From: an uncultured Alphaproteobacteria bacterium
GTDB lineage: Bacteria > Pseudomonadota > Alphaproteobacteria > Rhizobiales > Xanthobacteraceae
Reading direction: 5' to 3'
Length of the DNA stretch: 64,000 nucleotides
Assembly (NCBI GenBank): GCA_963814885.1
Contig: CAWFEO010000003.1
Span: forward strand, 4,973-68,972
Below are positions 32,019 to 42,468 of the stretch, one piece after another. Numbering within the stretch: the stretch's first letter is position 1; each line of letters begins with the position of its first letter. The position numbers and the translations under genes are program-made. Below the pieces are notes generated by a model. That model was given only the letters and a program-made list of their open reading frames with translations. It did not search any database and had not been told where the DNA came from.

Positions 32019-33608
32019 TCAGACCTTACCCCAGTTCAATGAGTACAGGTCGAAGCGGCGGTCCCGCAAATTCATCACGGTGCCGTCCTGCCGCGACGCC
32101 CGCAGCGAATCGAGCTGAAGATCGGCGATCGCCACCATTTCGACGTTCGGCGTCGTGTCGGCGGCGACGCCGTCGCGCGCGAAGGGAAAGTCGCACGGCG
32201 TCAGCACGCAGCTTTGCGAGTACTGGATGTCCATGTTCTCGACATCGGGCAGGTTGCCGACGTTGCCGGCCATGACGACGTAACACTGGTTCTCGACGGT
32301 GCGCGCGTGCGCGCAATAGCGTACACGGTGATAAGCCTGTGGTGAATCGGTGCAGAACGGCACGAACAAAAGAAGCGCGCCCTGGTCGATCAGATAGCGC
32401 GTCATTTCCGGAAACTCGCAATCGTAGCAGATCTGCACGCCGATCGGGCCGCAATCTGTCTGCACGATGTTGACGTCGCTGCCGCCTTTTATGTTCCACC
32501 AATAGCGCTCGCTCGGCGTCGGATGGACCTTGCTGCGAGGATGCACGCTGCCGTCGCGCAGGCAGACGAAGCAAATGTTGTAGATTTCGCCGTCCGCCTC
32601 GCGCGTCGGGTGCGACCCGCCGATGATGTTGACGTTGTAGTTGACCGCGAGGCGGCTCATCAGTTCCTTGAACCTCTCGGTGTAATTGGTCAGCGTCAGG
32701 ATCGCCTCAGCGGCGGGGATGCGCTTATTGTCGATCGACAGGAGCTGAAGCGTGAACAGCTCCGGAAACAGAATGAAATCCGCCTTGTAGTCGGCGACCA
32801 CGTCGACGAAATATTCGACCTGCTTGGCGAACTCCTCGAACGAGGTGAGCGCACGTTGCTGATACTGCACCGCCGCCACGCGCACGGTCTGCAGCCCGCG
32901 CGTCGCCGTTCCGGCGACCACGACGGAGTCCTCCGGCACCTGCGGGTTGCGCCAGATCATATGCGTCGCGAAGCCGCGCGATTCATGGTCGACCGGAAGA
33001 TAATTGTGCAGGACCCTGAGCGGCTGGAAGCCGTTGCGGGTCTGGAAGCCGATCACCGGATCGCGCAGTTTTCCGGCGATCACCAGTTCAAGATACTTTT
33101 CCGCCGAGCCGACCGTATTCCATCGCCGCGCCAATTGCGGCATGCGGCCGGCGAACACAATGCCCTTCAACCGCAGATGCTGGCAAAGGCGCTTTCGTTC
33201 GTTGTAAAGCCGCTGGCCGATACGTTGGCCGCGAAAATCCGGGTCGACGCAGACGTCCATGCCGTAGAGCCAGTCGCCCTTGCTGTCGTGGCGCGACGCA
33301 AAACCGCGGCCGGTGATTGTCACCCAGTCATGCGGCTTGAGCGCCACCTCGCCCGCAATCCGGAACGTGACGCAATAGCCAACGATGGTGTCTTCATAGA
33401 TTGCGACGAACTGGCCCTCGGGGAACTGGTGCTGGTGACCGAGCAGCTGCGCTTCGGAATAAACCCCGACCGGACCCAGCGTGGCGTAGGCCTTGGCCAT
33501 GAGTGCCTTGATACCGGGAATATCGCCGGGGATGGCGTTGCGCACGACCAGCTTGGGGCCGGTGTCCTTGTCACGCAGCCGCTTGCCGGGTTCGATGTCC
33601 GTTTTCAT
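32019..33608 (-). CDS. Bifunctional GNAT acetyltransferase / carbon-nitrogen hydrolase
   Basis: N-terminal VDPDFRGQRIGQRLY acetyl-CoA motif; C-terminal nitrilase triad FPELF (E), SKVHPT (K), ICYDCEFPE (C). Confidence 0.9.
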   Translation of the reverse strand: MKTDIEPGKRLRDKDTGPKLVVRNAIPGDIPGIKALMAKAYATLGPVGVYSEAQLLGHQHQFPEGQFVAIYEDTIVGYCVTFRIAGEVALKPHDWVTITGRGFASRHDSKGDWLYGMDVCVDPDFRGQRIGQRLYNERKRLCQHLRLKGIVFAGRMPQLARRWNTVGSAEKYLELVIAGKLRDPVIGFQTRNGFQPLRVLHNYLPVDHESRGFATHMIWRNPQVPEDSVVVAGTATRGLQTVRVAAVQYQQRALTSFEEFAKQVEYFVDVVADYKADFILFPELFTLQLLSIDNKRIPAAEAILTLTNYTERFKELMSRLAVNYNVNIIGGSHPTREADGEIYNICFVCLRDGSVHPRSKVHPTPSERYWWNIKGGSDVNIVQTDCGPIGVQICYDCEFPEMTRYLIDQGALLLFVPFCTDSPQAYHRVRYCAHARTVENQCYVVMAGNVGNLPDVENMDIQYSQSCVLTPCDFPFARDGVAADTTPNVEMVAIADLQLDSLRASRQDGTVMNLRDRRFDLYSLNWGKV

Positions 33609-33773
33609 GAATTCGTTCTAGCCTGTGATTCGCCGTGTTCCATAACGAATTTATGCGATGAGACGGTCGTCGCATCGCTGCCTCGGCTAAAGATGGGTTC
33701 CACAATGGGCAATGCAACCGCATAAAATATCGCGGTTCCGCAGCATTCCGGCCGATTTCGGCGCAAACAGCGC

Positions 33774-34277
33774 TCAGAACTCCAGCTTATCCTGCACCGC
33801 CGCTAATCCGACCTTGGCGCAGGCCTCGTCCTTGTCGCCGCCGGGCGCGCCCGCCACCCCGACCCCGCCGAGCAGCGCGCCGCCAGCCTGGATCACCAGG
33901 CCGCCGACCAGCGGCGTCACCCCGGGCAAGCCGGTCAGGCCGGAACCGATCGTGCCGTCCTTGATCGCTTTGACGAACTCGCCGGTGTCACGGGTGAAGG
34001 TCACGGCGGTCCAGGCTTTGCCCTTGGCGATATCGAGCGCGGCCGCCGGCGCGAAACGGTCGCGCAGGCTCGCCAGTGGTGTGCCGAAACGGTCGAGCAC
34101 CACCACGGCGACCTGGAAGCCGTCCTTGCGGCACTGAACGATCGCGGCGCGCGCCAGATCGAAGGCGGCGTCGGGCGAAAGCGACTTGTAGGTGACGACG
34201 CCTTCCGCGGCGCGGGTGGGCGCTGCCGCCGCGATCGTTACCGCGGCGGCGACAACCAGCATGAGACCTTTCTTCAC
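33774..34277 (-). CDS. GlcG/HbpS-like heme-binding protein, exported
   Basis: Signal peptide; VAVVVLDRFG, KAWTA, GGVGVAGAPGGDKDEACA; GTG start 34277. Confidence 0.85.
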   Translation of the reverse strand: MKKGLMLVVAAAVTIAAAAPTRAAEGVVTYKSLSPDAAFDLARAAIVQCRKDGFQVAVVVLDRFGTPLASLRDRFAPAAALDIAKGKAWTAVTFTRDTGEFVKAIKDGTIGSGLTGLPGVTPLVGGLVIQAGGALLGGVGVAGAPGGDKDEACAKVGLAAVQDKLEF

Positions 34278-34315
34278 CTCAGCCTCCCTTGTTACGGAGC
34301 CGGGCCGGCCCCGCA

Positions 34316-34795
34316 TTACGGCTTGATATAAGTCCAGCCTTGTTCCTGCAGCTCGGTCAGGCGCACCACGCCGCCGGGCACGATGCGCGCCTCGGAGACG
34401 ATCTTGATCGGATGCCCTTCCTTCTTTTCCATCTTGCCCATGGTAACGTGGCAGGCCGAATAGGTCAGCTTCGACGGAAAAGCCACCTTCTTCAGATTCG
34501 CCAAGCGGTCCTTCACTGGCGACTTGTCGTCACGCAACATCATCAGACCCGGCCCATAAGCCACCACCTCGATTTCCGCCGTCTCGCCTTTCTCCTGATA
34601 AGCCTGCATTATGTTCTCGACATTGTTGAGAGCGAGAGCCATCTTCGCCTTGTCGTTCTGGCTAACCTGGAACACGATGTGGTGCACCTTTCCGCTCGCC
34701 TTTTTCATATTTTCGTCGGCATGACCCGGCGTCGCCGCCATCAATCCAAGAGCAAGTGCGGCGACAGCCAACACTGCGTATTTTGAACGCTTCAT
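34316..34795 (-). CDS. DsrE-family protein with signal peptide
   Basis: HHIVFQVS, ALNNVEN, IEVVAYGPGL, SACHVT, VPGGVVRLTELQEQGWTYIKP. Confidence 0.88.
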   Translation of the reverse strand: MKRSKYAVLAVAALALGLMAATPGHADENMKKASGKVHHIVFQVSQNDKAKMALALNNVENIMQAYQEKGETAEIEVVAYGPGLMMLRDDKSPVKDRLANLKKVAFPSKLTYSACHVTMGKMEKKEGHPIKIVSEARIVPGGVVRLTELQEQGWTYIKP

Positions 34796-34832
34796 TTCAG
34801 ATTCCTCCCGATGTTGAACTTGCGATTTCTTG

Positions 34833-35306
34833 TTATGGACGTACCAGCGTGTAGCCCTTCTTGGTCAAAGTGAGGATGCGGGCGACACCGACTTGCACCT
34901 TCACGGCTTTCGGATTGATATTCACGTGTTTGCCTTCACGCTCGAGCGTATCGACCGTGTTCATGCAGATGTCGAACTGAACGCCTTGCGAGATCAGGCT
35001 GTCGACCCGCGCGCGATTGGGGCTTTCCGCGCGCAGCAGGTCGATGCCGGCGCCGAACGCCACCACCTCGATGGCGATCTTGTCGGTCCCATAGGCCTTC
35101 AACAGATTGTTGGCGACGCTGAGCACCAGCGCCTGCTTGTCCGGTGCGCGGTCGGAGAGTTGCAGGACCAAATGGTGTTCGGCGAACGGCTTGTCCGGCG
35201 ACGGCGGGCTTGCGGGCGTCTGCGCGGCAGCCGGCGACAAGCCAATGGCCGTGACCGCCAGAACGAGAGCGGAAAACCGCGCCAAACGAGCGAGCGCAAC
35301 GGACAT
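34833..35306 (-). CDS. DsrE-family protein with signal peptide (second paralogue)
   Basis: HHLVLQLSD, LSVANNL, IEVVAFGAGI, DICMNT, GYTLVRP. Confidence 0.88.
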   Translation of the reverse strand: MSVALARLARFSALVLAVTAIGLSPAAAQTPASPPSPDKPFAEHHLVLQLSDRAPDKQALVLSVANNLLKAYGTDKIAIEVVAFGAGIDLLRAESPNRARVDSLISQGVQFDICMNTVDTLEREGKHVNINPKAVKVQVGVARILTLTKKGYTLVRP

Positions 35307-35314
35307 ACGTTCCT

Positions 35315-37060
35315 CTATCCGGCAAAGCCCGGATTGTTCGCCACGCCCTTGAGCGCGACCTGATTGAATTTCTTAGGCTTCGCGGTCTTTGCGCCGCGTA
35401 GGTAGTTCGCGAACACGTCCCACACCGGCTTGCCAGCTTGCGGATTGACCGAGGCCCAGCCGGCGACCTTATAGGTCTTGCCGGCTTCGAGCTTGCGGCC
35501 ATTGTCGAGCGTCAAATCTGAAATGCGCTGGCCGACTTTTGCCGCCGGCGCGCAGGCGTAGTCCATGCCGCCGATGCGCACCATATCGCCGCCCTGCTGG
35601 CGATAGGGATCGGGATTGAACAGGTTGTCGCAGACGTCTTCCATGATCGCCTTAATCTGGGCGCCGGTCATTTCCTGCACATAGACTTCCGGATAGGTGA
35701 TTGCGGTTTCCGACAACACGTCGCCCATGGTGACGGGCTCTCCCGGCAACACCGTATTGCCCCAGCGGAAGCCGGGCGAAAATGCCAATTCGGCATCGAG
35801 CTCATGGCGCAAGGCGTCGCAGATGAGCTGATCCATGGTGCCGTTGAAATTGCCGCGCCGGTACAGGAGATCGCCCGCCACCGCCAGCTTCTCGGAAAAC
35901 TGCGCCGCATGCGGCTTGCTGGCGCGATCGATCAACGCCTGCATTTCGGGATCGGGTTTCAGAAGCCCGGCATAGACCGGCAACAGGCGATAGCGCGCAT
36001 CCTTGACCGCGCCCTTGGCCAGTTCGAGATCGAGCACGACGAGGAACTTGCCGGTCGATCCGCCGTTGGCCACCAGAGTCTGGCCGCCGGAATTCTTCAC
36101 CGTCACCGGCCGCGGCACCACGTCGTGGGTATGGCCGCCGAGGATGACGTCGATGCCGGTGACATTGCTTGCGAGCTTGAGATCGACATCCATGCCGTTG
36201 TGCGAGAGCAGGATGACGGCGTCGACCTTGTCCTTTTGGCGCAATCCATCGACGACTTTCTGCATCTCGTCGTCGCGGATGCCGAAGGTCCAATCGGGCG
36301 TAAAGCGCTTGGGATGAGCGACCGGCACGTAAGGAAACGCCTGGCCGATGACGCCGATGCGGTGCCCACCGACTTCTTTCACGGTTGCCGGCTTGAACAC
36401 GCGGCCCGAGGCGGCGTCGAACGCCGGCTTGTCGTCGAACGCCGCTTCCTCGGTCAGGAACACGTTCTGCGCCAGGAACTCGCCCTTGAAGCGCTTGAGA
36501 TTGGCGCGCAGTTTTTCCTCGCCATAGGTGAATTCCCAATGGCCGGTCGTCAGCTCGACGCCGAGCAGATTGGCAGCATCCACCATGTCTTCGCCGTGCG
36601 TCGCATTAGCAACGCCGCTGCCCTGCCAGAGGTCGCCACCGTCGAGCAGCAGCGATTTGCCGCTGCCGGCGTCGGCACGCAGGCGGTCGATCAGGGTCTT
36701 GAGGTGCGCGAAGCCGCCGAGCCGGCCGTAACGGTGCGCGGCTTCAGCAAAATCGAGATAGGTGAAGGCATGCGCCTGCCGGCTGTTCGGCGCGATGCCG
36801 AAGTATTCGAGAAAAGCCCGCCCGACCAGGTGCGGGGGCTTGCCCGCCATGGCGCCGACGCCAAGATAGATGCTCGGCTCGCGGAAATAGACCGGCGTCA
36901 GCTGCGCGTGGGTGTCGGTCATGTGCAGCACGCGCGCGTTGCCGAAGCGGCCGATGTCATAAAGATCATCGGCCGCGGCGTCCGCGCCGCGGCTGATTCG
37001 AGGAATGGCACCAGATATCGCCGCGGCCGTGAGCGCCTTCAACAGGTCGCGGCGACGCAT
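35315..37060 (-). CDS. soxB: Thiosulfohydrolase SoxB
   Basis: Tat MRRRDLL; LHMTDTHAQL..VYFREPS, DGGDLWQG, GHWEFTYG, LSHNGMDVD, GGHTHD, RRGNFNGT, QQGGDMVR. Confidence 0.96.
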   Translation of the reverse strand: MRRRDLLKALTAAAISGAIPRISRGADAAADDLYDIGRFGNARVLHMTDTHAQLTPVYFREPSIYLGVGAMAGKPPHLVGRAFLEYFGIAPNSRQAHAFTYLDFAEAAHRYGRLGGFAHLKTLIDRLRADAGSGKSLLLDGGDLWQGSGVANATHGEDMVDAANLLGVELTTGHWEFTYGEEKLRANLKRFKGEFLAQNVFLTEEAAFDDKPAFDAASGRVFKPATVKEVGGHRIGVIGQAFPYVPVAHPKRFTPDWTFGIRDDEMQKVVDGLRQKDKVDAVILLSHNGMDVDLKLASNVTGIDVILGGHTHDVVPRPVTVKNSGGQTLVANGGSTGKFLVVLDLELAKGAVKDARYRLLPVYAGLLKPDPEMQALIDRASKPHAAQFSEKLAVAGDLLYRRGNFNGTMDQLICDALRHELDAELAFSPGFRWGNTVLPGEPVTMGDVLSETAITYPEVYVQEMTGAQIKAIMEDVCDNLFNPDPYRQQGGDMVRIGGMDYACAPAAKVGQRISDLTLDNGRKLEAGKTYKVAGWASVNPQAGKPVWDVFANYLRGAKTAKPKKFNQVALKGVANNPGFAG

Positions 37061-37094
37061 CGCGCGGGTCTCCCGGTTACGCTGCCAGCTCCGA

Positions 37095-37409
37095 TCAGCG
37101 GACGACAGCGTTCTTCCAAAGCTTTTTCTGCTCTTCGGCCTGCGCGATGGACGCGTTGGCCAGCGCCTCGGCTTTCATGGCGTGCTTGACGGCGTCGTCA
37201 AACTTGCCGGCGTCAGCCGCCTTTTTCGCGGCTTTTAGCTCACTGGCCGTTGTCAGCCATGCAGTCTTCATGGCGAGCGACTTTTTGTTCGCCGCCTCGG
37301 CCTTGGCATAGACCGCCTTGAAGTCGTCGGCCGACGCAGCAAACGCGGCCGTCACGAAGCCACCGACCGAAAGGACAACGGCCAACAGGATCAAAACACG
37401 AGTGCGCAT
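37095..37409 (-). CDS. soxK: SoxAX-binding protein (SoxK/SAXB)
   Basis: 104-aa exported Ala/Lys-rich helical protein (AEAANKKS..AWLTT..LKAAKKAADAGKFDDAVK..AEALA) between soxA and soxB. Confidence 0.75.
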   Translation of the reverse strand: MRTRVLILLAVVLSVGGFVTAAFAASADDFKAVYAKAEAANKKSLAMKTAWLTTASELKAAKKAADAGKFDDAVKHAMKAEALANASIAQAEEQKKLWKNAVVR

Positions 37410-37433
37410 GTTATTCCTCCACATGGGTCCGTT

Positions 37434-38276
37434 TTATGGGCGCGCGCCCGGCCCCGAGATCGGCAGGCCGTTGGCCATGTACGAAAGATAATATTCGACG
37501 TCGCTGTAGAGCTCATCGTTCGGTTTGAGCGGCACCGCGCGCACCTGGCTGTTGCAGGAGGTGATGCGGCGGCTGGTGGTGCCCATGCCGGCCCAGGCCG
37601 AGCGATAGATCGGCAGCGCGTTGAGAATGCCGAGCGCCGGCGCCAGCACCTCGGTACGGATATGCTTACCCGCGCTTTCCACGTGGCAGCTCGCGCAGGA
37701 GAAGTTGAGCTGGCCGCGGCGGGTGTAGAAATATTCCTCGCCCTTCTTGTAGGCGGCGAGCGCGCGCGGGTCGTTCGGGATCTTGATAGACATCGGCTTG
37801 CCGCGCGAGGTGTAGGCCATATAGGCGGTGATCACCGCCATGTCGTTCTTCTTGTAGTCGTAGGGCTTTTCGCCGTTGGCGGTGCGGCACTCGTTGACCG
37901 CCACTTCAAGCGTGATCACTTTGCCCGCCTTGGCGTCGAACATGGGATAGTTCTGGCGGATACCGATGCCCTTGTTCGGGAAGCAATCGGCGTAGGTTTT
38001 GCCGTTCTTGAACGGCGTACTGAACATCTGTTTGCCTTTTTCGACGGCGAATTCGTAGGGCGGGAATTCTTCTTTCGCCTGCCACTGCTTATGCAAGCCC
38101 GCATCCATCGAATAGGGGCCGTTGACAAAATCCTTGAGCGGCACTTTCGGGAACCGCTCCGTGAAATATTTCTGGAACGCCTTCCTGTCCGCTTCGGGGT
38201 TTACGTCACTGGCAGCCAGTAGAGGCTGCGCCGTGCCGACGACAATCGCGACCGCGACGAAAATATTGCGCAGCAT
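37434..38276 (-). CDS. soxA: SoxA cytochrome c, mono-heme type III-like
   Basis: Single CxxCH (SCASCH); first site degenerate (YADCF); YTRRGQLNFSC; catalytic-Cys region RRITSCNSQVR. Confidence 0.93.
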   Translation of the reverse strand: MLRNIFVAVAIVVGTAQPLLAASDVNPEADRKAFQKYFTERFPKVPLKDFVNGPYSMDAGLHKQWQAKEEFPPYEFAVEKGKQMFSTPFKNGKTYADCFPNKGIGIRQNYPMFDAKAGKVITLEVAVNECRTANGEKPYDYKKNDMAVITAYMAYTSRGKPMSIKIPNDPRALAAYKKGEEYFYTRRGQLNFSCASCHVESAGKHIRTEVLAPALGILNALPIYRSAWAGMGTTSRRITSCNSQVRAVPLKPNDELYSDVEYYLSYMANGLPISGPGARP

Positions 38277-38313
38277 TCACCAATCCTCCCTGTCACCCTT
38301 AACTAATCGGGCT

Positions 38314-38628
38314 TTATTGAATCTTGGCCATCAGTGAATCCGATGCGCCTTTATTGTCGACCCAGCTGATTTTCAGCTCATCGCCTTTCTTGCCGCCCTT
38401 GAAGCTGAACTTCAGGTACGGGTCTTTCGAGATGGCCGGCCCCCAAAAAGCGGTAAACACCGTTTTGCCGCCGAGTTCGAACTGCAACACCTCGATGTGG
38501 TGCGCCGGGATGGGCTTGCCGGTTTTCCTATCCTTCACGAAACCGGAATCCATCGGATGCCGGATCAGCGATTGGACCTGCGTCCTGCCGCCGCTCGAGA
38601 CGGCCTTCACGCGAATTGTCGATGCCAT
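38314..38628 (-). CDS. soxZ: Sulfur carrier SoxZ
   Basis: IRHPMDSG..KD..G..IPAHHI, ISKDPYLKF, WVDNKG. Confidence 0.95.
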   Translation of the reverse strand: MASTIRVKAVSSGGRTQVQSLIRHPMDSGFVKDRKTGKPIPAHHIEVLQFELGGKTVFTAFWGPAISKDPYLKFSFKGGKKGDELKISWVDNKGASDSLMAKIQ

Positions 38629-38658
38629 TGCTCTCGCCTCTCTGTTCGATGACGCCGA

Positions 38659-39150
38659 TCAGCCGCCGCAGCCGCCGACGGTGACCTTGACCTCCTTGGA
38701 CGCGCTGTAGAGCTTGCCGTTCGACTCCACGACCGCGACGACCTTGCTGGTTTTGGCCATTTTCAGCCGGTTCGCCACCGCGGCTTCGGTCCCTTCCGGA
38801 ATCTTGTAGGCGGCGGCGAGCACATTGGGATTGTTCAGCACCAGGATGGCGATGGCGGTGACCTTGGGCAGGTTGCTCGAAACCGCGATCGGCACCACCG
38901 CGCCGTTTTCCGCGATTTCCGGCGCGTCGAGACCGATTTTATCCGAGGCGGTCGCGGTCTTGCCGTAGAGCGCTTTCAGCACGTCGGCTTCGCTCTTCTG
39001 CTTGAAGGCGTCCGCCGGCCACCCCTTGGCGTCCTCGGCGTAGACCGGAAACGGGAAGCTGCCGAGGCCAAGCCCCGCCAGGCCGCCGGCGACGGCGCCT
39101 TTCAGGATCATGCGTCGCGCGGAATTGGGCGCGTCCGGAAAACTTTTCAT
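38659..39150 (-). CDS. soxY: Sulfur carrier SoxY
   Basis: Tat ARRMILKG; APEIAENGAVVP; C-terminal swinging arm VKVTVGGCGG. Confidence 0.96.
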   Translation of the reverse strand: MKSFPDAPNSARRMILKGAVAGGLAGLGLGSFPFPVYAEDAKGWPADAFKQKSEADVLKALYGKTATASDKIGLDAPEIAENGAVVPIAVSSNLPKVTAIAILVLNNPNVLAAAYKIPEGTEAAVANRLKMAKTSKVVAVVESNGKLYSASKEVKVTVGGCGG

Positions 39151-39182
39151 TGCATTTTCTCCTTGTTGGCCCACACGCGCGG

Positions 39183-39542
39183 TTAGCGGGTGTAGAGGAA
39201 ATCGACGATAGCCTCGATTTCCTTATCGTTCAGAATGAGATTGCGCTTGAACGGCGGCATCACCGTGAGCTCATTGCGTTTCGTTTCGTCGGAAACGATT
39301 GCGATCAGCTCCTTGCGTTCCGGAAAGCGCTTCTTCATGTCGTTGAGCGCCGGACCGATATTGCCGTTGTCGGGACCGCCCTTGATCGCATGGCAGGTCA
39401 GGCAATTACCTTTGCTGCGCGCGAACGCCAGCTTCTCGCCTTCCGACGGCGCCGCGGATACGGCACTCATGCCCAGCACGAAAGCGCCGAGGACTCCGCA
39501 GGCGATTGCCGCCAGCGCAAATTGCGACTGTCTTAATTCCAT
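39183..39542 (-). CDS. soxX: SoxX cytochrome c
   Basis: KGNCLTCH, GNIGPAL, VMPPF, EIEAIVDFLYT. Confidence 0.93.
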   Translation of the reverse strand: MELRQSQFALAAIACGVLGAFVLGMSAVSAAPSEGEKLAFARSKGNCLTCHAIKGGPDNGNIGPALNDMKKRFPERKELIAIVSDETKRNELTVMPPFKRNLILNDKEIEAIVDFLYTR

Positions 39543-39583
39543 CCTTTTTCCTCCCCAGCGCGTGTGGACCGTTATGCCCGGTC

Positions 39584-39995
39584 CTAATTCGGAATCGTTT
39601 CATCCAGAGATCTCACCGTCGGCGGCGTCAGTAACATTCTTTCCGCCGTTGACTCGATCTTCTTCTTATTAGGACCAGCACAGCCCTTCACGTATTCTTT
39701 TGCCGACGTATCGGGCCGCGGGTCCTGCTACTTAAAGTGGCCGCAGTTAAGTCTGTCCACTTTAGGCAAAGCGTCGCGATCTGCAACGAAATTATTTCCC
39801 ATCATATGGTTGATGTCGAGCACGTAAGCGGTGAGCGCGCAAACGTCGTTGGTCGATTGCGTTCGCGGCGCGAACGACCGCATCGCATGATTGATGATGT
39901 CGAACGGCATCGCGGCGAACGGCCAACTGCCGCCGAGCTCCGGCGCCGTCCGTTGCATGGCCGGCATCCGCTGCGATCGGTGTCCCGGTTGTCAT
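39584..39995 (-). pseudogene. soxD: Decayed SoxD-like cytochrome c
   Basis: GSWPFAAMPFDIINHAM...TNDVCALTAYVLDIN...DALPKV...HFK*QDPRPD...KGC...KIESTAE; in-frame TAG at 39728-39730, homology continues to TAG 39584; no intact CxxCH or signal peptide. Confidence 0.75.
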
Positions 39996-40251
39996 GGCCG
40001 CGAAAAAAATCCGGCGGCGAAGGACCGGCAACGTCATTGGTGTTTGGCTCCCTAGACCAATACATATTCAATTTGTACTATTTGTTTCGGGCCGTCCAGA
40101 ACAAACAGCAGCGCTGGCTTGCCCACGCGCAGGCTCCGCGAACGGTCCGGCGGCTCCGGAAAAAACCTTTGCCGCCAGAACGTTAGACGCGATTGTAATT
40201 TGCGCTGGGCGGATCGGCGGCTCGCGTCATGCGGTCGCAGCCGCGACGCTG

Positions 40252-42468
40252 CTACTTGGTCTCGAAGGCGAACACGCCATTCCAGTCCGCCGGCGGCGGA
40301 TCTTGCTGGAAGGCGGCGCAGCGGGCGGCGTAGAGGTCGCCGAGATGACCGAGGCCGAGCCCGTGGCTTGCCTCGCGGCAACGCAGGATCGCTTCTTGGG
40401 CGCCGGCGAAATCGCGCCGCCGATAGCACGCAAGCACCTCCCCGAAGACAGTCTGAATGTGCTTGAAGCTGTCGCTGCGGGCGACGTCCTCGCGGCCCAG
40501 AATCGTATAGATGTTTTCGGGCTCGGTTTTTCCTTTCACCGTGATGCAATCGAGCTCCAGCACGGCGAATTTCTCCTTCGCCAATTGCGCCGTCTTGGAG
40601 CCGACGACGACGGAAACGCCGTATGATTTGGTCTGACCTTCAAGGCGTGAAGCCAGGTTGACCGCGTCGCCGAGCACCGAATAGTTGAAGCGCAGATCGG
40701 AGCCCATATTGCCGACGACGCATTTGCCGGTATTGATGCCGACGCCGATCTTGATCGGGATGAAGCGCTGGCCGGTCTCTTGGGCGTCCTGCTCGCGCCG
40801 CCGGTTGAGCGTCTCGACGCGGTGGAGCATTTCGAGCGCAGCCTCGCAGGCATTGAGTTCGTGACCCGGATCGTGCAGCGGCGCGTTCCAGAACGCCATG
40901 ATCGCGTCGCCGATATATTTGTCGATGGTACCGTTGTGATCGATGATCGCGTTGGTCATCGGCGTGAGGAAATGGTTGATCAGTGAGGTCAGCCCTTGCG
41001 GGTCGTCCTTGTAGATTTCCGATATGGTGGTGAAGCCGCGCACGTCGCTGAACATGATGGTCATGTCGCGCTCCTCGCCGCCAAGCACGAGCGAATCGTG
41101 CGAATGGGCGAGTTGTTCAACCAGCGATGGCGCCAGATACTGACCGAAAGCCGTGCGAATACGGCGGCGCTGGATCTGCTCGCGGAAATAGTTGATGAAG
41201 ACCAGCGTCAGATAGATGAGGAATGTCGCCAATAGCGGATAACTGGCATCGATGAGGATACGGTGCTCGACGAAGAGGTACCAGGAACCCGCCGCCACCA
41301 CGGCGGCCACGGCGCCGCCCAGGACCAACATCATCGCGGCGCCGAGAATGGGCCCGAGCGCGATGATCGCCAGGCCGAAAATCACGGTAGTGGCCAGTTC
41401 GGCGCCGATGGCGTAGTCGGGATAGACAAGAACCGCGTTGCTCAGCACGCTTTCCAGCACCTGTGCGTGAACCTCGACGCCGGACATCGCTGGATCGATC
41501 GGCGTCGTCTTAATGTCGCGTAAGCCCACCGCCGAGGTGCCTATCAAAACCAGCTTGCGGTTGACCCGGTCGGCCGGCACGCGATCCTCCAGGACATCCT
41601 TGGCCGAGATGTAGCGGGCGGGGTCGTAGTGCGCGAAATGAACATAGAGCTGGCCATTGCGGTCGGTCGGCATGTCGAGACCGGGAACGGCGACGCTGTG
41701 GATGCCGGCGGCATCACTCTTGATCCTGATGGCGCCGGAGTGGGTGACGACGCGCAGCATTTCGAGCGTCAACGCCGGGACGATCTTGCCCTCTGCCTTC
41801 ATCACCATGGGCACGCGGCGCACGATGCCATCGGGTTCGGCGCGGATGCTGAGCATGCCGCGGCCGGCGGCGGCTTTTTCAAGCGCCGGGATATTCCGGA
41901 TCAGACCCGGAAAGGTCATGAGATAGGGGCTCGGGTCGGGACCCATCATGGCGAAGCCGGCGCCCGGCGGCTGCGGGCCGGACCGCGGCAAGCTCAGGTG
42001 GTGACCGGACTCGCCCAGGATCACGCGCGAGCGGTGGATGGCGTCGGCGAAAACGTCGTCATTGCTCGGTAGTTTCTGGAGTTGCGCGCGGGTCTGCGGG
42101 TCGAGATTGCGGAAGCTTTCCGCCGCGACGGCTGGTGACATGCGGTCGGGTTCGGCAAAGATGATGTCGAAGGCGATTGCCGCGCTTCCCAGCTTGGTGA
42201 GCTTGGTGACCAGATCGGCCAGCAGCGTCCGCGGCCACGGCCATTGTCCGAAGGCGGCCAGGCTCGCCTCGTCGATATCGACGATCACGGCCGGCCGCAG
42301 CTTGGCGTCGCGGGGTTTGAGCTCCTGGTAGAAATCGAAGGTGCGCGCGCGCAGGGATTGGAGCGGCCCGGGGTCCCAGATGCGCAAGGCCACCAGCCCC
42401 GCCAACAGGAACAGGCAGACCACGCGGCCAATGCCGAACGACTGCGCCAATCGGTAAAGCTTGTTCAT
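40252..42468 (-). CDS. CHASE2-domain class III adenylate cyclase
   Basis: IVDIDEASL..FGQWPWPR CHASE2, three TM, MFSDVRGFT, IDKYIGDAIMAFWNAP (ATP-specifying Lys), GDAVNLASRLE. Confidence 0.93.
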   Translation of the reverse strand: MNKLYRLAQSFGIGRVVCLFLLAGLVALRIWDPGPLQSLRARTFDFYQELKPRDAKLRPAVIVDIDEASLAAFGQWPWPRTLLADLVTKLTKLGSAAIAFDIIFAEPDRMSPAVAAESFRNLDPQTRAQLQKLPSNDDVFADAIHRSRVILGESGHHLSLPRSGPQPPGAGFAMMGPDPSPYLMTFPGLIRNIPALEKAAAGRGMLSIRAEPDGIVRRVPMVMKAEGKIVPALTLEMLRVVTHSGAIRIKSDAAGIHSVAVPGLDMPTDRNGQLYVHFAHYDPARYISAKDVLEDRVPADRVNRKLVLIGTSAVGLRDIKTTPIDPAMSGVEVHAQVLESVLSNAVLVYPDYAIGAELATTVIFGLAIIALGPILGAAMMLVLGGAVAAVVAAGSWYLFVEHRILIDASYPLLATFLIYLTLVFINYFREQIQRRRIRTAFGQYLAPSLVEQLAHSHDSLVLGGEERDMTIMFSDVRGFTTISEIYKDDPQGLTSLINHFLTPMTNAIIDHNGTIDKYIGDAIMAFWNAPLHDPGHELNACEAALEMLHRVETLNRRREQDAQETGQRFIPIKIGVGINTGKCVVGNMGSDLRFNYSVLGDAVNLASRLEGQTKSYGVSVVVGSKTAQLAKEKFAVLELDCITVKGKTEPENIYTILGREDVARSDSFKHIQTVFGEVLACYRRRDFAGAQEAILRCREASHGLGLGHLGDLYAARCAAFQQDPPPADWNGVFAFETK

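What the first reader, a model, noticed from the sequence alone, without database searches (positions are those of the whole stretch)
33774..35306. Two exported DsrE-family proteins and a GlcG/HbpS protein appended to the sox operon
Seen: soxB is followed after 8, 37 and 38-bp gaps by two DsrE-like genes and a GlcG/HbpS-like gene. All three have N-terminal signal-like peptides, and each DsrE keeps the conserved Cys (SACHVT; DICMNT). Established: characterised DsrE sulfurtransferases are cytoplasmic. Inference: periplasmic DsrE paralogues may accept or shuttle sulfane sulfur from SoxY, a function of particular value in a SoxCD-less system.
Basis: partly seen in the sequence, partly recalled or inferred. 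Interest (0 to 1): 0.6.

Follow-up and report, generated by a model that had tools for sequence, protein, structure and literature searches.

The report
Exported DsrE-like proteins after soxB
Two secreted single-cysteine proteins of the DsrE fold and a secreted HbpS-like protein are conserved tail genes of a sulfur-oxidation (sox) operon, and they are good, still untested candidates for passing sulfur from the periplasmic carrier SoxYZ towards the cell interior.

Summary
On the minus strand, soxX-Y-Z-A, a SoxAX-binding-protein-like gene and soxB are followed by two paralogous genes (D1, D2) and a GlcG/HbpS-like gene. All three have good ribosome-binding sites, Sec-type leaders and no promoter or terminator between them.

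D1 and D2 belong to the uncharacterised MTH1491 branch of the DsrE superfamily. Each has a single, almost invariant Cys.

D1 sits directly after soxB in 67 of 80 related loci. In 12 of the other 13 it sits directly after a YeeE/SoxT-like sulfur transporter gene.

In 301 genomes of the same order, all 30 with a close homologue have SoxB. None of the 186 without SoxB has one.

A complex model places D1 on the conserved face of SoxYZ (score 0.69, best control 0.00).

The SoxCD-less emphasis is not supported: 37 of the 67 soxB-linked loci also carry soxC just upstream. This genome itself has no SoxC above the cut-off and carries an sHdr-LbpA cluster with a YeeE-like gene.

A periplasmic DsrE-like protein in a sox operon was noted once in print (Methylovirgula thiovorans, PNAS 2022), with the same speculation and no test.

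Verdict: a new member of a noted but uncharacterised kind, of moderate interest.

The parts
39791..39819 (-). sigma-70-like promoter match upstream of soxX
   Evidence: 10 of 12 hexamer positions match. It is the only minus-strand promoter-like site in 33400-40300. This is a consensus match only.
39183..39542 (-). soxX (c-type cytochrome)
   Evidence: TIGR04485, 86.9 bits (cut-off 61).
38659..39174 (-). soxY (carrier protein with twin-arginine leader and C-terminal GGCGG)
   Evidence: TIGR04488, 159.4 bits (cut-off 125). Searches show the leader and the C-terminus.
38314..38628 (-). soxZ
   Evidence: TIGR04490, 126.7 bits (cut-off 76).
37434..38276 (-). soxA
   Evidence: TIGR04484, 233.1 bits (cut-off 110).
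37095..37424 (-). small exported protein resembling the SoxAX-binding protein (SAXB/SoxK)
   Evidence: NF052674, 48.5 bits, below the cut-off of 95, so this is a resemblance only. The gene is syntenic in most related loci.
35315..37060 (-). soxB (thiosulfohydrolase, twin-arginine leader)
   Evidence: TIGR04486, 847.8 bits (cut-off 550).
34833..35306 (-). D1: exported MTH1491-type DsrE-fold protein, single Cys at residue 114 (DICMNT), N-terminal DKPFAEH motif specific to the D1 clade
   Evidence: PDB sequence matches; model and fold searches; Cys counts; leader; gene order; tree; complex model.
34316..34795 (-). D2: exported paralogue of D1 (33% identity), single Cys (SACHVT)
   Evidence: Pfam; comparison with D1; PDB sequence match; model and fold search; Cys counts; tree; leader.
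33774..34277 (-). exported GlcG/HbpS-like (DUF336) protein of a Sox-linked clade
   Evidence: PF03928, 90.4 bits; start codon and ribosome-binding site; tree of paralogues; leader; homologue lengths and names.

Best explanation
D1 and D2 are soluble periplasmic proteins of the MTH1491 branch of the DsrE superfamily, each with one Cys. They are made together with SoxXA(K)B-YZ.

D1 docks on the conserved face of the SoxYZ carrier. It takes the sulfane sulfur left on the SoxY cysteine after SoxB has released sulfate, and holds it as a persulfide on its own Cys. D1, alone or via D2, then presents that sulfur to a YeeE/SoxT-type membrane channel.

In this genome the sulfur would next be oxidised in the cytoplasm by the TusA/DsrE3/sHdr-LbpA system. 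In relatives with SoxCD the same relay could instead serve signalling to a SoxR-type repressor, or feed a cytoplasmic persulfide dioxygenase-rhodanese.

The HbpS-like protein is an accessory ligand- or haem-binding protein of the same periplasmic module.

Shown: gene order, export signals (by heuristic), fold, conserved Cys, co-occurrence with Sox, adjacency to YeeE, and a supportive docking model.
Inferred: persulfide chemistry, direction of transfer, hand-over to YeeE, and the role of the HbpS-like protein.
For: Operon: gaps of 8, 37 and 38 bp, ribosome-binding sites, and no promoter or terminator match between soxB and the last gene.

Fold: the D1 model has pLDDT 94.4 and the D2 model 94.3. 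For D1, VIA-align gives MTH1491 Z 19.4, YchN Z 14.1 and TusD Z 12.6. Foldseek matches DsrE 2hy5_A at E 1.7e-3 for D1 and 1.4e-4 for D2.

Cys: kept in 21/21, 101/102 and 67/67 sequences. It lies at the end of a strand and the start of a helix. It aligns with the Cys of this genome's own DsrE3 proteins, though weakly (hhalign E 0.0019 and 0.011).

Gene order in 80 loci:
- soxB is directly upstream of D1 in 67.
- A YeeE-like gene is directly upstream in 12 of the other 13.
- D2 follows in 55.
- The HbpS-like gene follows in 41.
- A cytoplasmic MBL-rhodanese fusion follows in 25.

Other families: soxB-D-YeeE in 4 of 4 f33 genomes and in G621 (f96). soxB-D-HbpS-like in G534 (f112).

Co-occurrence:
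- Order sample: 30 of 30 genomes with a close homologue have SoxB, and 0 of the 186 without SoxB have one.
- Phylum sample: 33 of 55 SoxB genomes have a family hit, against 12 of 346 without SoxB (tallied by hand).

Docking: D1 with SoxY and SoxZ scored 0.69 (median of 3 runs) and the best of 3 controls 0.00. Runs agree in at least 90% of contacts and the partner's pLDDT is at least 89. This mark was reached by 116 of 157 solved complexes and 2 of 215 mismatched pairs. The counts hold only roughly here, because my own alignments and three chains were used. The contacts involve the invariant SoxY stretch APEIAEN..V.P and the D1-specific Pro-Phe of DKPFAEH.

This genome: no SoxC above the cut-off. 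It has an sHdr-LbpA cluster with 3 DsrE3-like genes, 2 TusA genes and an adjacent YeeE-like gene.

Literature: Li et al. 2024 (PMC11582611, passages) say the SoxY-bound sulfur reaches the cytoplasm 'by unknown means' through SoxT1A. Gwak et al. 2022 propose a periplasmic DsrE-like carrier. Their homologue carries a SignalP Sec signal (0.98) and was detected in proteomes (Dataset S3).
Against: - No member of the MTH1491/COG1416 branch has a demonstrated function. The 6 papers found with those terms report none.
- In the docking model neither D1 Cys (mature residue 86) nor the SoxY arm Cys is among the confidently touching residues. The D1 contacts lie at the N-terminal ends of strands 2 and 3, while the Cys is at the far end of strand 3.
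- No YeeE gene is next to D1 in this window. The nearest is on another contig.
- D2-like genes in other families of the order stand alone among housekeeping genes.
- Two genomes of the phylum sample (G532, G501) have a close homologue but no SoxB hit.
- The Methylovirgula homologue was not induced by thiosulfate in the proteome.
- Co-occurrence counts are not phylogenetically independent.
- Export rests on heuristics, not on SignalP or an experiment for these proteins.
Confidence: 0.5

Rival explanations
1. Sensor role. D1 and D2 report the periplasmic sulfur (or SoxY loading) state to a signalling route, rather than carrying the bulk of the sulfur. For example they could feed a SoxT/YeeE-SoxR relay, or act like the DsrE-like periplasmic domains of anti-sigma factors.
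For: - In Afipia-type loci, YeeE-D1(-D2) lies back to back with a second YeeE-like gene plus an ArsR-type regulator, next to soxVW and a complete soxXA/YZBC cluster.
- In L114 an ECF sigma factor is followed by a 232-aa protein whose last ~127 residues match the D-family profile (E 1.1e-11), inside a sox cluster.
- Li et al. 2024 assign a signalling role to SoxT1B and to SoxT in complete Sox systems.
- D1 occurs with SoxCD in 37 of 67 soxB-linked loci, where bulk import is not needed.
Against: - D1 and D2 are free soluble proteins with no output domain.
- No regulator gene lies in this operon.
- In this genome, which has no SoxC, bulk transfer is needed anyway.
- The two roles are not exclusive.
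Confidence: 0.2
2. Carrier maintenance. D1 and D2 keep SoxY usable by removing dead-end adducts or extra sulfur atoms from its Cys. This is the job ascribed to SoxS/SoxW-type thiol-disulfide proteins in other sox clusters.
For: - This operon type has no soxSVW genes within the loci examined.
- The docking model puts D1 on SoxYZ.
- In other lineages D-like genes sit beside thioredoxin-like, redoxin or MsrAB genes (L108, L115, L116).
Against: - A single-Cys protein cannot complete a disulfide reduction alone.
- Afipia-type clusters have both soxVW and D1.
- The YeeE adjacency is not explained.
Confidence: 0.15
3. A periplasmic stand-in for SoxCD. D1 and D2 exist to deal with the sulfane sulfur specifically where SoxCD is missing.
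For: - This genome has no SoxC above the cut-off.
- In the order sample a close D homologue is found in 17 of 39 SoxB+ SoxC- genomes, against 13 of 76 SoxB+ SoxC+ genomes.
Against: - 37 of 67 soxB-D1 loci have soxC in the same locus.
- Family members follow soxB in soxCD clusters of other families.
- 11 of 39 SoxB+ SoxC- genomes have no family hit at all.
- The enrichment is driven partly by stand-alone D2-like genes and by related genomes.
Confidence: 0.05
4. Not a sulfur carrier. D1 and D2 are periplasmic proteins of the MTH1491 family with an unrelated job (metal, redox or small-ligand binding) that merely travel with sox genes.
For: - The family has no known function.
- D1 has no Pfam hit and D2 only a marginal one.
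- The Methylovirgula homologue is expressed constitutively.
- Stand-alone D2-like genes have unrelated neighbours.
Against: - All 30 genomes of the order sample with a close homologue have SoxB.
- Adjacency to soxB or YeeE recurs in at least five families.
- The single Cys is almost invariant.
- The docking model is specific, with all controls at 0.00.
Confidence: 0.1

Closest known systems
MTH1491 (PDB 1l1s) and ST0148 (PDB 2pd2): the archaeal COG1416-type branch of the DsrE superfamily
   Same: Closest by sequence (profile E 2.6e-18 and 7.9e-5) and by fold (Z 19.4 and 17.6). The Cys aligns with MTH1491 Cys72 (alignments; residue numbers from PMC5495134, passages).
   Different: The archaeal proteins are about 110 aa with no leader, and their function is unknown. 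D1 and D2 carry Sec-type leaders, and D1 has an extra conserved N-terminal motif. MTH1491 is a homotrimer. The oligomeric state of D1 and D2 was not tested.
MHY1_00068 of Methylovirgula thiovorans HY1 (Gwak et al., PNAS 2022, PMC9371685)
   Same: The authors describe it as a periplasmic DsrE-like sulfurtransferase gene inside a sox operon of a SoxCD-less organism, with a proposed role in passing sulfur inward (passages). It has a SignalP Sec signal, matches PF02635, is 172 aa and was detected in proteomes (Dataset S3).
   Different: That organism uses rDsr and a membrane DsrE2A. This genome has sHdr-LbpA and YeeE. I could not obtain its sequence, so whether it is orthologous to D1 or to D2 is untested. 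There is one gene there and two here.
Cytoplasmic DsrE-type sulfurtransferases (DsrEFH, TusBCD, DsrE3)
   Same: Same fold (TusD Z 12.6, DsrH Z 12.3; DsrE E 1.4e-4 for D2). One conserved Cys at the strand-helix junction aligns weakly with the DsrE3 Cys.
   Different: Those proteins are cytoplasmic and most are heteromeric. Sequence identity is only 10-19%. No sulfur transfer has been shown for the MTH1491 branch.
Proposed periplasmic hand-over factors for SoxT1A/SoxT1B in Hyphomicrobium denitrificans (DsbA, SoxS; Li et al. 2024, PMC11582611)
   Same: Same proposed step: releasing SoxY-bound sulfane sulfur and presenting it to a YeeE-like channel, upstream of TusA and sHdr-LbpA (passages).
   Different: A different protein family (thioredoxin fold). 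That paper mentions DsrE once and does not propose a periplasmic DsrE-like protein.
SoxL, the periplasmic rhodanese encoded with sox genes of Allochromatium vinosum (recalled from memory, not checked in any call)
   Same: An exported single-Cys sulfurtransferase proposed to take sulfane sulfur off SoxY in a SoxCD-less system.
   Different: It has a rhodanese fold, not a DsrE fold. That organism stores the sulfur in periplasmic globules.
HbpS (Streptomyces reticuli), the PduO C-terminal domain and EfgA: characterised members of PF03928/DUF336
   Same: The third gene matches PF03928 at 90.4 bits. Like HbpS it is exported. Sources name its homologues 'GlcG (DUF336)' or 'heme-binding protein'.
   Different: No haem, iron or formaldehyde binding was tested. 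The Sox-linked proteins form their own clade apart from the other five paralogues of this genome. No paper found links this family to sox (I saw only titles and abstract starts of that listing).

Membership tests
DsrE/DsrF superfamily (Pfam PF02635) | Sequence match over the curated Pfam cut-off | tested here: inconclusive
   D2 scores 24.2 bits against a cut-off of 22.7. D1 has no hit at E<=0.01.
DsrE/DsrF superfamily (Pfam PF02635) | YchN/DsrE alpha-beta fold | tested here: met
   The D1 model (pLDDT 94.4) gives YchN Z 14.1, TusD Z 12.6 and DsrH Z 12.3. The D2 model (pLDDT 94.3) matches DsrE 2hy5_A at E 1.4e-4.
MTH1491 / COG1416 branch | Significant sequence and structural match to PDB 1l1s over the whole domain | tested here: met
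   phmmer E 6.1e-8 (D1) and 1.8e-7 (D2). Profile E 2.6e-18. TM-score 0.92 and 0.90 on the target, Z 19.4.
DsrE-type sulfurtransferase (functional class) | Conserved active-site Cys at the equivalent structural position | tested here: inconclusive
   The Cys is kept in 21/21, 101/102 and 67/67 sequences. It aligns with the Cys of this genome's DsrE3-like proteins, but hhalign probabilities are only 14% and 4%. No residue-level structural superposition on DsrE Cys78 was available.
DsrE-type sulfurtransferase (functional class) | Persulfide formation on, and transfer from, the Cys | not testable with these tools
   Needs mass spectrometry with loaded SoxYZ.
DsrEFH/TusBCD-type hetero-oligomer | Paralogous subunits assemble into one complex | not tested
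D1 occurs without D2 in 25 of 80 loci, so a D1-D2 heteromer cannot be obligatory.
Exported (Sec) periplasmic protein | Cleavable N-terminal signal peptide | tested here: met
   By heuristic only: a basic N-terminus, an uncharged stretch of 18-27 residues, small residues at -3/-1, and no lipobox Cys. Leader ends are conserved. 71 of 89 full-length family representatives have a strong N-terminal hydrophobic stretch. SignalP was not available. A published homologue has a SignalP score of 0.98.
Partner of the SoxYZ carrier | Physical binding to SoxYZ | tested here: inconclusive
   The model supports binding but does not show it: score 0.69, best control 0.00, mark reached by 116 of 157 solved complexes and 2 of 215 mismatched pairs.
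Truncated (SoxCD-less) Sox system coupled to sHdr-LbpA | SoxXA, SoxYZ and SoxB present; SoxCD absent; sHdr-LbpA with TusA/DsrE3 present | tested here: met
   Sox genes are over their cut-offs. The best SoxC score is 168.7 bits against a cut-off of 420, in a genome that is 91% complete. The sHdr-LbpA cluster is on contig C39. Absence from an incomplete genome is not proof.
HbpS-like / GlcG (PF03928, DUF336) | Sequence match over the curated cut-off | tested here: met
   90.4 bits against a cut-off of 25.
HbpS-like / GlcG (PF03928, DUF336) | Haem or other ligand binding | not testable with these tools
   Needs purified protein.

The most novel reading that the evidence does not exclude
D1 is the missing periplasmic link of truncated and regulated Sox systems. 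It is a new SoxYZ-binding partner that docks through its clade-specific DKPFAEH motif onto the invariant SoxY face, takes the sulfane sulfur, and feeds YeeE/SoxT channels. The same exported DsrE fold has been reused across Pseudomonadota as carrier (D1, D2) and as sensor domain of anti-sigma factors. A Sox-specific clade of exported HbpS-like proteins is a further undescribed component of the module.
Probability: 0.35. Interest if true: 0.7.

Novelty: new member of a known kind. Interest (0 to 1): 0.5.

Why it matters
How the sulfur atom left on SoxY reaches the cytoplasmic oxidation machinery (sHdr or rDsr) in SoxCD-less bacteria is an acknowledged gap. Li et al. 2024 write 'by unknown means'.

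The exported DsrE-fold proteins described here are widespread. 33 of the 55 SoxB-carrying genomes in a phylum-wide sample have a family member. They are tightly linked to soxB or to YeeE/SoxT genes, and D1 is predicted to dock on SoxYZ.

That gives a concrete, cheap set of experiments: binding, persulfide transfer and deletion in Bradyrhizobium or a similar tractable relative. It would also assign a first function to the MTH1491/COG1416 family, and possibly to a Sox-linked HbpS-like clade.

Tried and rejected
- RNA evidence: no RNA holder listed, so co-transcription could not be checked with reads.
- A PF02635 search of this genome missed D1 and D2 and found only two DsrE3-like genes on C39. 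I used the family's own profile (A1) from then on.
- Stand-alone D2-like genes of other families (20 loci fetched, tblastn, 29 neighbouring ORFs scanned) showed no recurring sulfur-related neighbour.
- A CHASE2 cyclase next to soxX is syntenic only in L003, L005 and part of L013 (3 of 80 loci), so it is not part of the module.
- Masuda et al. 2010 (PMC2849208) is not held. I therefore could not tell whether the D1-linked locus of Bradyrhizobium is the essential 'locus I' or the dispensable soxY2 locus named in PMC5748708 (passages).
- Looking up D1 and D2 by sequence in the scan's earlier findings gave nothing.
- The protein atlas only repeated 'DsrE family' names.
- A D1-D2 heteromer, a D1 homotrimer and D1 with YeeE were considered for the single complex job and left out in favour of D1 with SoxYZ.
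- The complex tool answered 'queue full' many times before the job was accepted.
- The hhalign comparisons with DsrE3 are too weak to settle equivalence of the active site.
Full report
**1. What is in the sequence**

The finding lies on the minus strand. Reading right to left, the genes are:

| Gene | Coordinates | Evidence (unless stated) |
|---|---|---|
| soxX | 39183-39542 | over the NCBIfam cut-off |
| soxY | 38659-39174 | over the cut-off; twin-arginine leader, C-terminal GGCGG |
| soxZ | 38314-38628 | over the cut-off |
| soxA | 37434-38276 | over the cut-off |
| 109-aa exported protein | 37095-37424 | resembles the SoxAX-binding protein: NF052674 48.5 bits, below its cut-off of 95 |
| soxB | 35315-37060 | TIGR04486, 847.8 bits (cut-off 550) |
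| D1 | 34833-35306 | 157 aa |
| D2 | 34316-34795 | 159 aa |
| GlcG/HbpS-like | 33774-34277 | PF03928, 90.4 bits |

- The third gap assumes the GTG start at 34277. That start has a GGGAGG ribosome-binding site and gives the 164-167 aa typical of homologues.
- An ATG at 34316 overlaps the D2 stop and has no ribosome-binding site.
- D1 and D2 also have ribosome-binding sites.
- A pattern scan found one promoter-like site upstream of soxX, and no promoter-like or terminator-like site on the minus strand between soxB and the last gene.

So the three genes are most simply the tail of the sox operon. No RNA data could be laid on it (see Tried and rejected).

**2. The two DsrE-like proteins**

- D1 and D2 are paralogues: 33% identity over 122 residues, E 4e-17.
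- D2 just passes Pfam DsrE (24.2 bits, cut-off 22.7). D1 has no Pfam or NCBIfam hit.
- Both match one solved structure by sequence: MTH1491 of Methanobacterium (1l1s), at E 6.1e-8 and 1.8e-7. A family profile matches it at 2.6e-18 and ST0148 (2pd2) at 7.9e-5.
- AlphaFold models of the mature parts are confident, pLDDT 94.4 and 94.3.
- For D1, VIA-align gives MTH1491 Z 19.4, ST0148 Z 17.6, YchN Z 14.1, TusD Z 12.6 and DsrH Z 12.3. Foldseek agrees for both models.

They are therefore DsrE-superfamily proteins of the MTH1491 branch. The literature I could search gives that branch no function: 6 papers hold 'MTH1491' or 'COG1416', and none is functional. One of them uses MTH1491 as a homotrimer scaffold (passages).

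Each protein has exactly one Cys. It is kept in 21 of 21, 101 of 102 and 67 of 67 aligned relatives. In both models it sits at the end of a strand and the start of a helix. Profile-to-sequence alignments place it on the Cys of this genome's own DsrE3-like proteins, but weakly.

**3. Export**

SignalP was not available. By a simple hydropathy reading:

- D1, D2 and the HbpS-like protein each start with 2-3 basic residues.
- An uncharged stretch of 18-27 residues follows, ending in small residues (AAA-Q, GHA-D, TRA-A).
- There is no twin arginine and no lipobox Cys.
- SoxZ and the downstream GNAT-nitrilase gene lack such a stretch.

The ends of the leaders are conserved in homologues while the hydrophobic cores drift. 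Of 89 full-length family representatives, 71 have a strong N-terminal hydrophobic stretch. A published homologue (MHY1_00068) has a SignalP Sec score of 0.98 and was found in proteomes (Dataset S3 of PMC9371685).

**4. Comparative genomics**

*The 80 best loci.* D1 has 3261 and D2 has 638 database relatives at E<=0.001. In the clustered library D1 has 816 representatives at E<=0.001. I fetched the 80 best genome loci. Their records are labelled Pseudolabrys, Undibacter, Afipia, Bradyrhizobium, Nitrobacter and uncultured Alphaproteobacteria. I mapped the window's proteins on them:

| Feature in the 80 loci | Count |
|---|---|
| soxB directly upstream of D1, same strand | 67 (77 loci had room) |
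| of the 13 without, a YeeE-like (Sulf_transp) gene directly upstream of D1 | 12 (Afipia type) |
| of the 13 without, D1 follows the SAXB-like gene | 1 |
| D2 follows D1 | 55 |
| HbpS-like gene follows | 41 |
| all three present | 36 |
| D1 alone | 20 |
| cytoplasmic metallo-beta-lactamase-rhodanese fusion follows directly | 25 (Bradyrhizobium/Nitrobacter type) |

*SoxC.* A SoxC homologue lies about 2 kb upstream of soxX, on the same strand, in 37 of the 67 soxB-linked loci. It also lies beside the other sox cluster in 6 Afipia-type loci. The query protein for this mapping scores 662 bits on TIGR04555.

*Tree.* A maximum-likelihood tree separates a D1 clade (23 rows, support 99/91) from a D2 clade (16 rows, 100/98). 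The D2 clade is nearest to stand-alone D2-like genes of other families. The duplication is therefore old.

**5. Genome co-occurrence**

*Order sample* (301 genomes):

- 30 genomes have a close homologue (E<1e-30), and all 30 have SoxB.
- None of the 186 genomes without SoxB has a close homologue.
- Close homologues occur in 17 of 39 SoxB+ SoxC- genomes and in 13 of 76 SoxB+ SoxC+ genomes.
- 11 of the 39 SoxB+ SoxC- genomes have no family hit at all.

*Phylum sample* (401 genomes, tallied by hand):

- 33 of 55 SoxB genomes have a family hit (E<=1e-5), against 12 of 346 genomes without SoxB.
- Two genomes (G532, G501) have a close homologue but no SoxB.

These genomes are related to one another, so the counts overstate independence.

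*Distance to soxB* (hand tally from the listed places):

- In the order sample the hit lies within 10 kb of the reported soxB in 20 of the 57 genomes with both.
- Outside the order it does so in 10 of 20.
- Many assemblies are fragmented, and only the best soxB place is listed per genome.

**6. Context in other families**

- f33: soxB-D-YeeE in 4 of 4 genomes (G032, G166, G201, G261).
- G621 (f96): the same order after soxCD..YZAX.
- G531: D lies divergent from a YeeE gene, 0.6 kb away.
- G534 (f112): soxX-Y-A-(small gene)-B-D-HbpS-like, the same architecture as this window.
- G177: a D-like-MsrA-MsrB unit convergent with soxB, with an HbpS-like gene beside the sox genes.
- G652: an ECF sigma factor plus a 232-aa protein whose C-terminal part matches the D profile, inside a sox cluster. 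Earlier notes of this scan describe the same thing.
- Outside family f1 the close D2-like genes stand alone among housekeeping genes.

**7. This genome**

- It is 91% complete and has one set of sox genes.
- D1 and D2 occur only at this locus.
- It has no SoxC above the cut-off. The best hit scores 168.7 bits against a cut-off of 420.
- Contig C39 carries a full sHdr-LbpA cluster. It includes lipoate-maturation genes, three DsrE3-like and two TusA genes, an LbpA, an SQR-like gene and an adjacent YeeE-like gene.
- That YeeE-like protein is 42% identical to the D1-linked YeeE of the Afipia type.

This is the Hyphomicrobium-type arrangement: truncated Sox outside, sHdr inside. For that arrangement Li et al. 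2024 (PMC11582611, passages) state that the SoxY-bound sulfur reaches the cytoplasm 'by unknown means'. They suggest DsbA or SoxS as the factor that presents it to SoxT1A/B.

**8. Docking model**

- The tool's verdict is that the model supports binding but does not show it.
- The score is 0.69 (median of three runs: 0.65, 0.69, 0.70). The best of three controls is 0.00.
- The runs agree in at least 90% of contacts, and the partner's pLDDT is at least 89.
- The mark was reached by 116 of 157 solved complexes and by 2 of 215 mismatched pairs. These counts hold only roughly here, because my own alignments and three chains were used.
- Confident contacts on SoxY are residues 38-44, 47, 49 and 90 of the mature chain. 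These include the invariant APEIAEN..V.P stretch.
- Contacts on SoxZ are residues 6, 8, 19, 21, 69 and 71.
- Contacts on D1 (mature numbering) are residues 12-13, 38, 41-42, 45-48, 71-72, 74-76 and 78-80. Residues 12-13 are the Pro-Phe of the D1-specific DKPFAEH motif.
- Neither the D1 Cys (mature 86) nor the SoxY arm Cys is among the confident contacts. The model therefore speaks for docking, not for a transfer geometry.
- I know of no solved complex of a DsrE-fold protein with SoxYZ (recalled, not searched). A pass from memory of a like complex seems unlikely but cannot be excluded.

**9. The HbpS-like protein**

- This genome has six PF03928 genes.
- In a quick tree the Sox-linked ones form one clade (19 rows, SH-aLRT 97), apart from the other five paralogues. 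The clade includes those that follow D genes, the Afipia type beside soxXA, and those of G177 and G534.
- That tree has long branches and only this genome's paralogues as outgroup.
- Sources name the homologues GlcG (DUF336) or haem-binding protein.
- Characterised relatives bind haem or iron (HbpS, PduO C-terminal domain) or sense formaldehyde (EfgA). I saw only titles and abstract starts for these.
- No listed paper ties the family to sox.
- Its role here is open. I guess it is a ligand- or haem-binding accessory of the periplasmic module.

**10. Reading**

The best-supported reading is this. D1, and with it D2, are periplasmic single-Cys carriers. They work on SoxYZ and pass sulfur on towards YeeE/SoxT-type channels, for oxidation by sHdr in this genome and perhaps for signalling or a cytoplasmic persulfide dioxygenase elsewhere.

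The emphasis on SoxCD-less systems is not.

The rivals cannot be excluded without experiments: a sensor role, a SoxY-maintenance role, a SoxCD stand-in, or an unrelated periplasmic job. The sensor role fits the Afipia-type and anti-sigma contexts well.

**11. Novelty**

A search for 'periplasmic DsrE', 'DsrE-like' and 'sox operon' found 3 papers with at least two of the terms. Only one held 'periplasmic DsrE'. That paper is Gwak et al. 2022. It names such a gene in the sox operon of Methylovirgula thiovorans and speculates that it passes sulfur to a membrane DsrE2A (passages).

Earlier notes of this scan also report exported DsrE-like proteins in several sulfur-oxidiser operons. None of them is on this DNA.

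The kind is therefore noted but uncharacterised, and this locus is a new member.
- the breadth of the soxB-D1 synteny;
- the alternative linkage to YeeE;
- the independence from SoxCD status;
- a specific docking prediction;
- the Sox-linked HbpS-like clade.

Noticed in passing
window 40252-42468 (-): A 738-aa CHASE2 + adenylate/guanylate cyclase gene sits directly upstream of soxX, where many relatives carry soxCD. It is syntenic only in the closest loci (L003, L005, part of L013). A CHASE2 cyclase also follows a stand-alone D2-like gene in L088.
   Followed up: partly
window 33774-34277 (-); L107 11683-12183; L108 4047-4547; L111 7314-7919: Exported HbpS/GlcG-like proteins linked to sox clusters of different architectures form one clade, apart from this genome's five other paralogues (quick tree). 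I found no paper on this.
   Followed up: partly
G000 contig C39, 158000-178300 (L085, L117): A complete sHdr-LbpA sulfur-oxidation cluster: lipoate-maturation genes, three DsrE3-like and two TusA genes, an SQR-like gene with DUF1641, and a YeeE-like transporter. A LysR regulator and a small membrane protein follow.
   Followed up: partly
L114 9825-11091 (G652): An ECF sigma factor gene is followed by a 232-aa anti-sigma-like protein whose C-terminal ~127 residues match the D-family profile. The pair is inserted between duplicated soxY/soxZ genes. This agrees with earlier scan notes e1-3803515 and e1-2995874.
   Followed up: partly
L106 3534-4604 and 25 of the 80 loci: A cytoplasmic metallo-beta-lactamase + rhodanese fusion (persulfide-dioxygenase-like, no leader) directly follows D1/D2/HbpS-like in Bradyrhizobium/Nitrobacter-type sox operons.
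   Followed up: partly
L108 9579-11408 (G177): A D2-like exported gene forms a unit with MsrA and MsrB genes, convergent with soxB.
   Followed up: no
window 32019-33608 (-): A 529-aa GNAT + carbon-nitrogen hydrolase fusion lies 165 bp downstream of the HbpS-like gene. It is syntenic in several close relatives: L003, L005, L008, L010, L013, L020. No link to sulfur is evident.
   Followed up: no
window 37095-37424 (-): The small exported protein between soxA and soxB scores only 48.5 bits on the SoxAX-binding-protein model (cut-off 95), yet it is syntenic in most related loci. It may be a divergent SAXB/SoxK.
   Followed up: no
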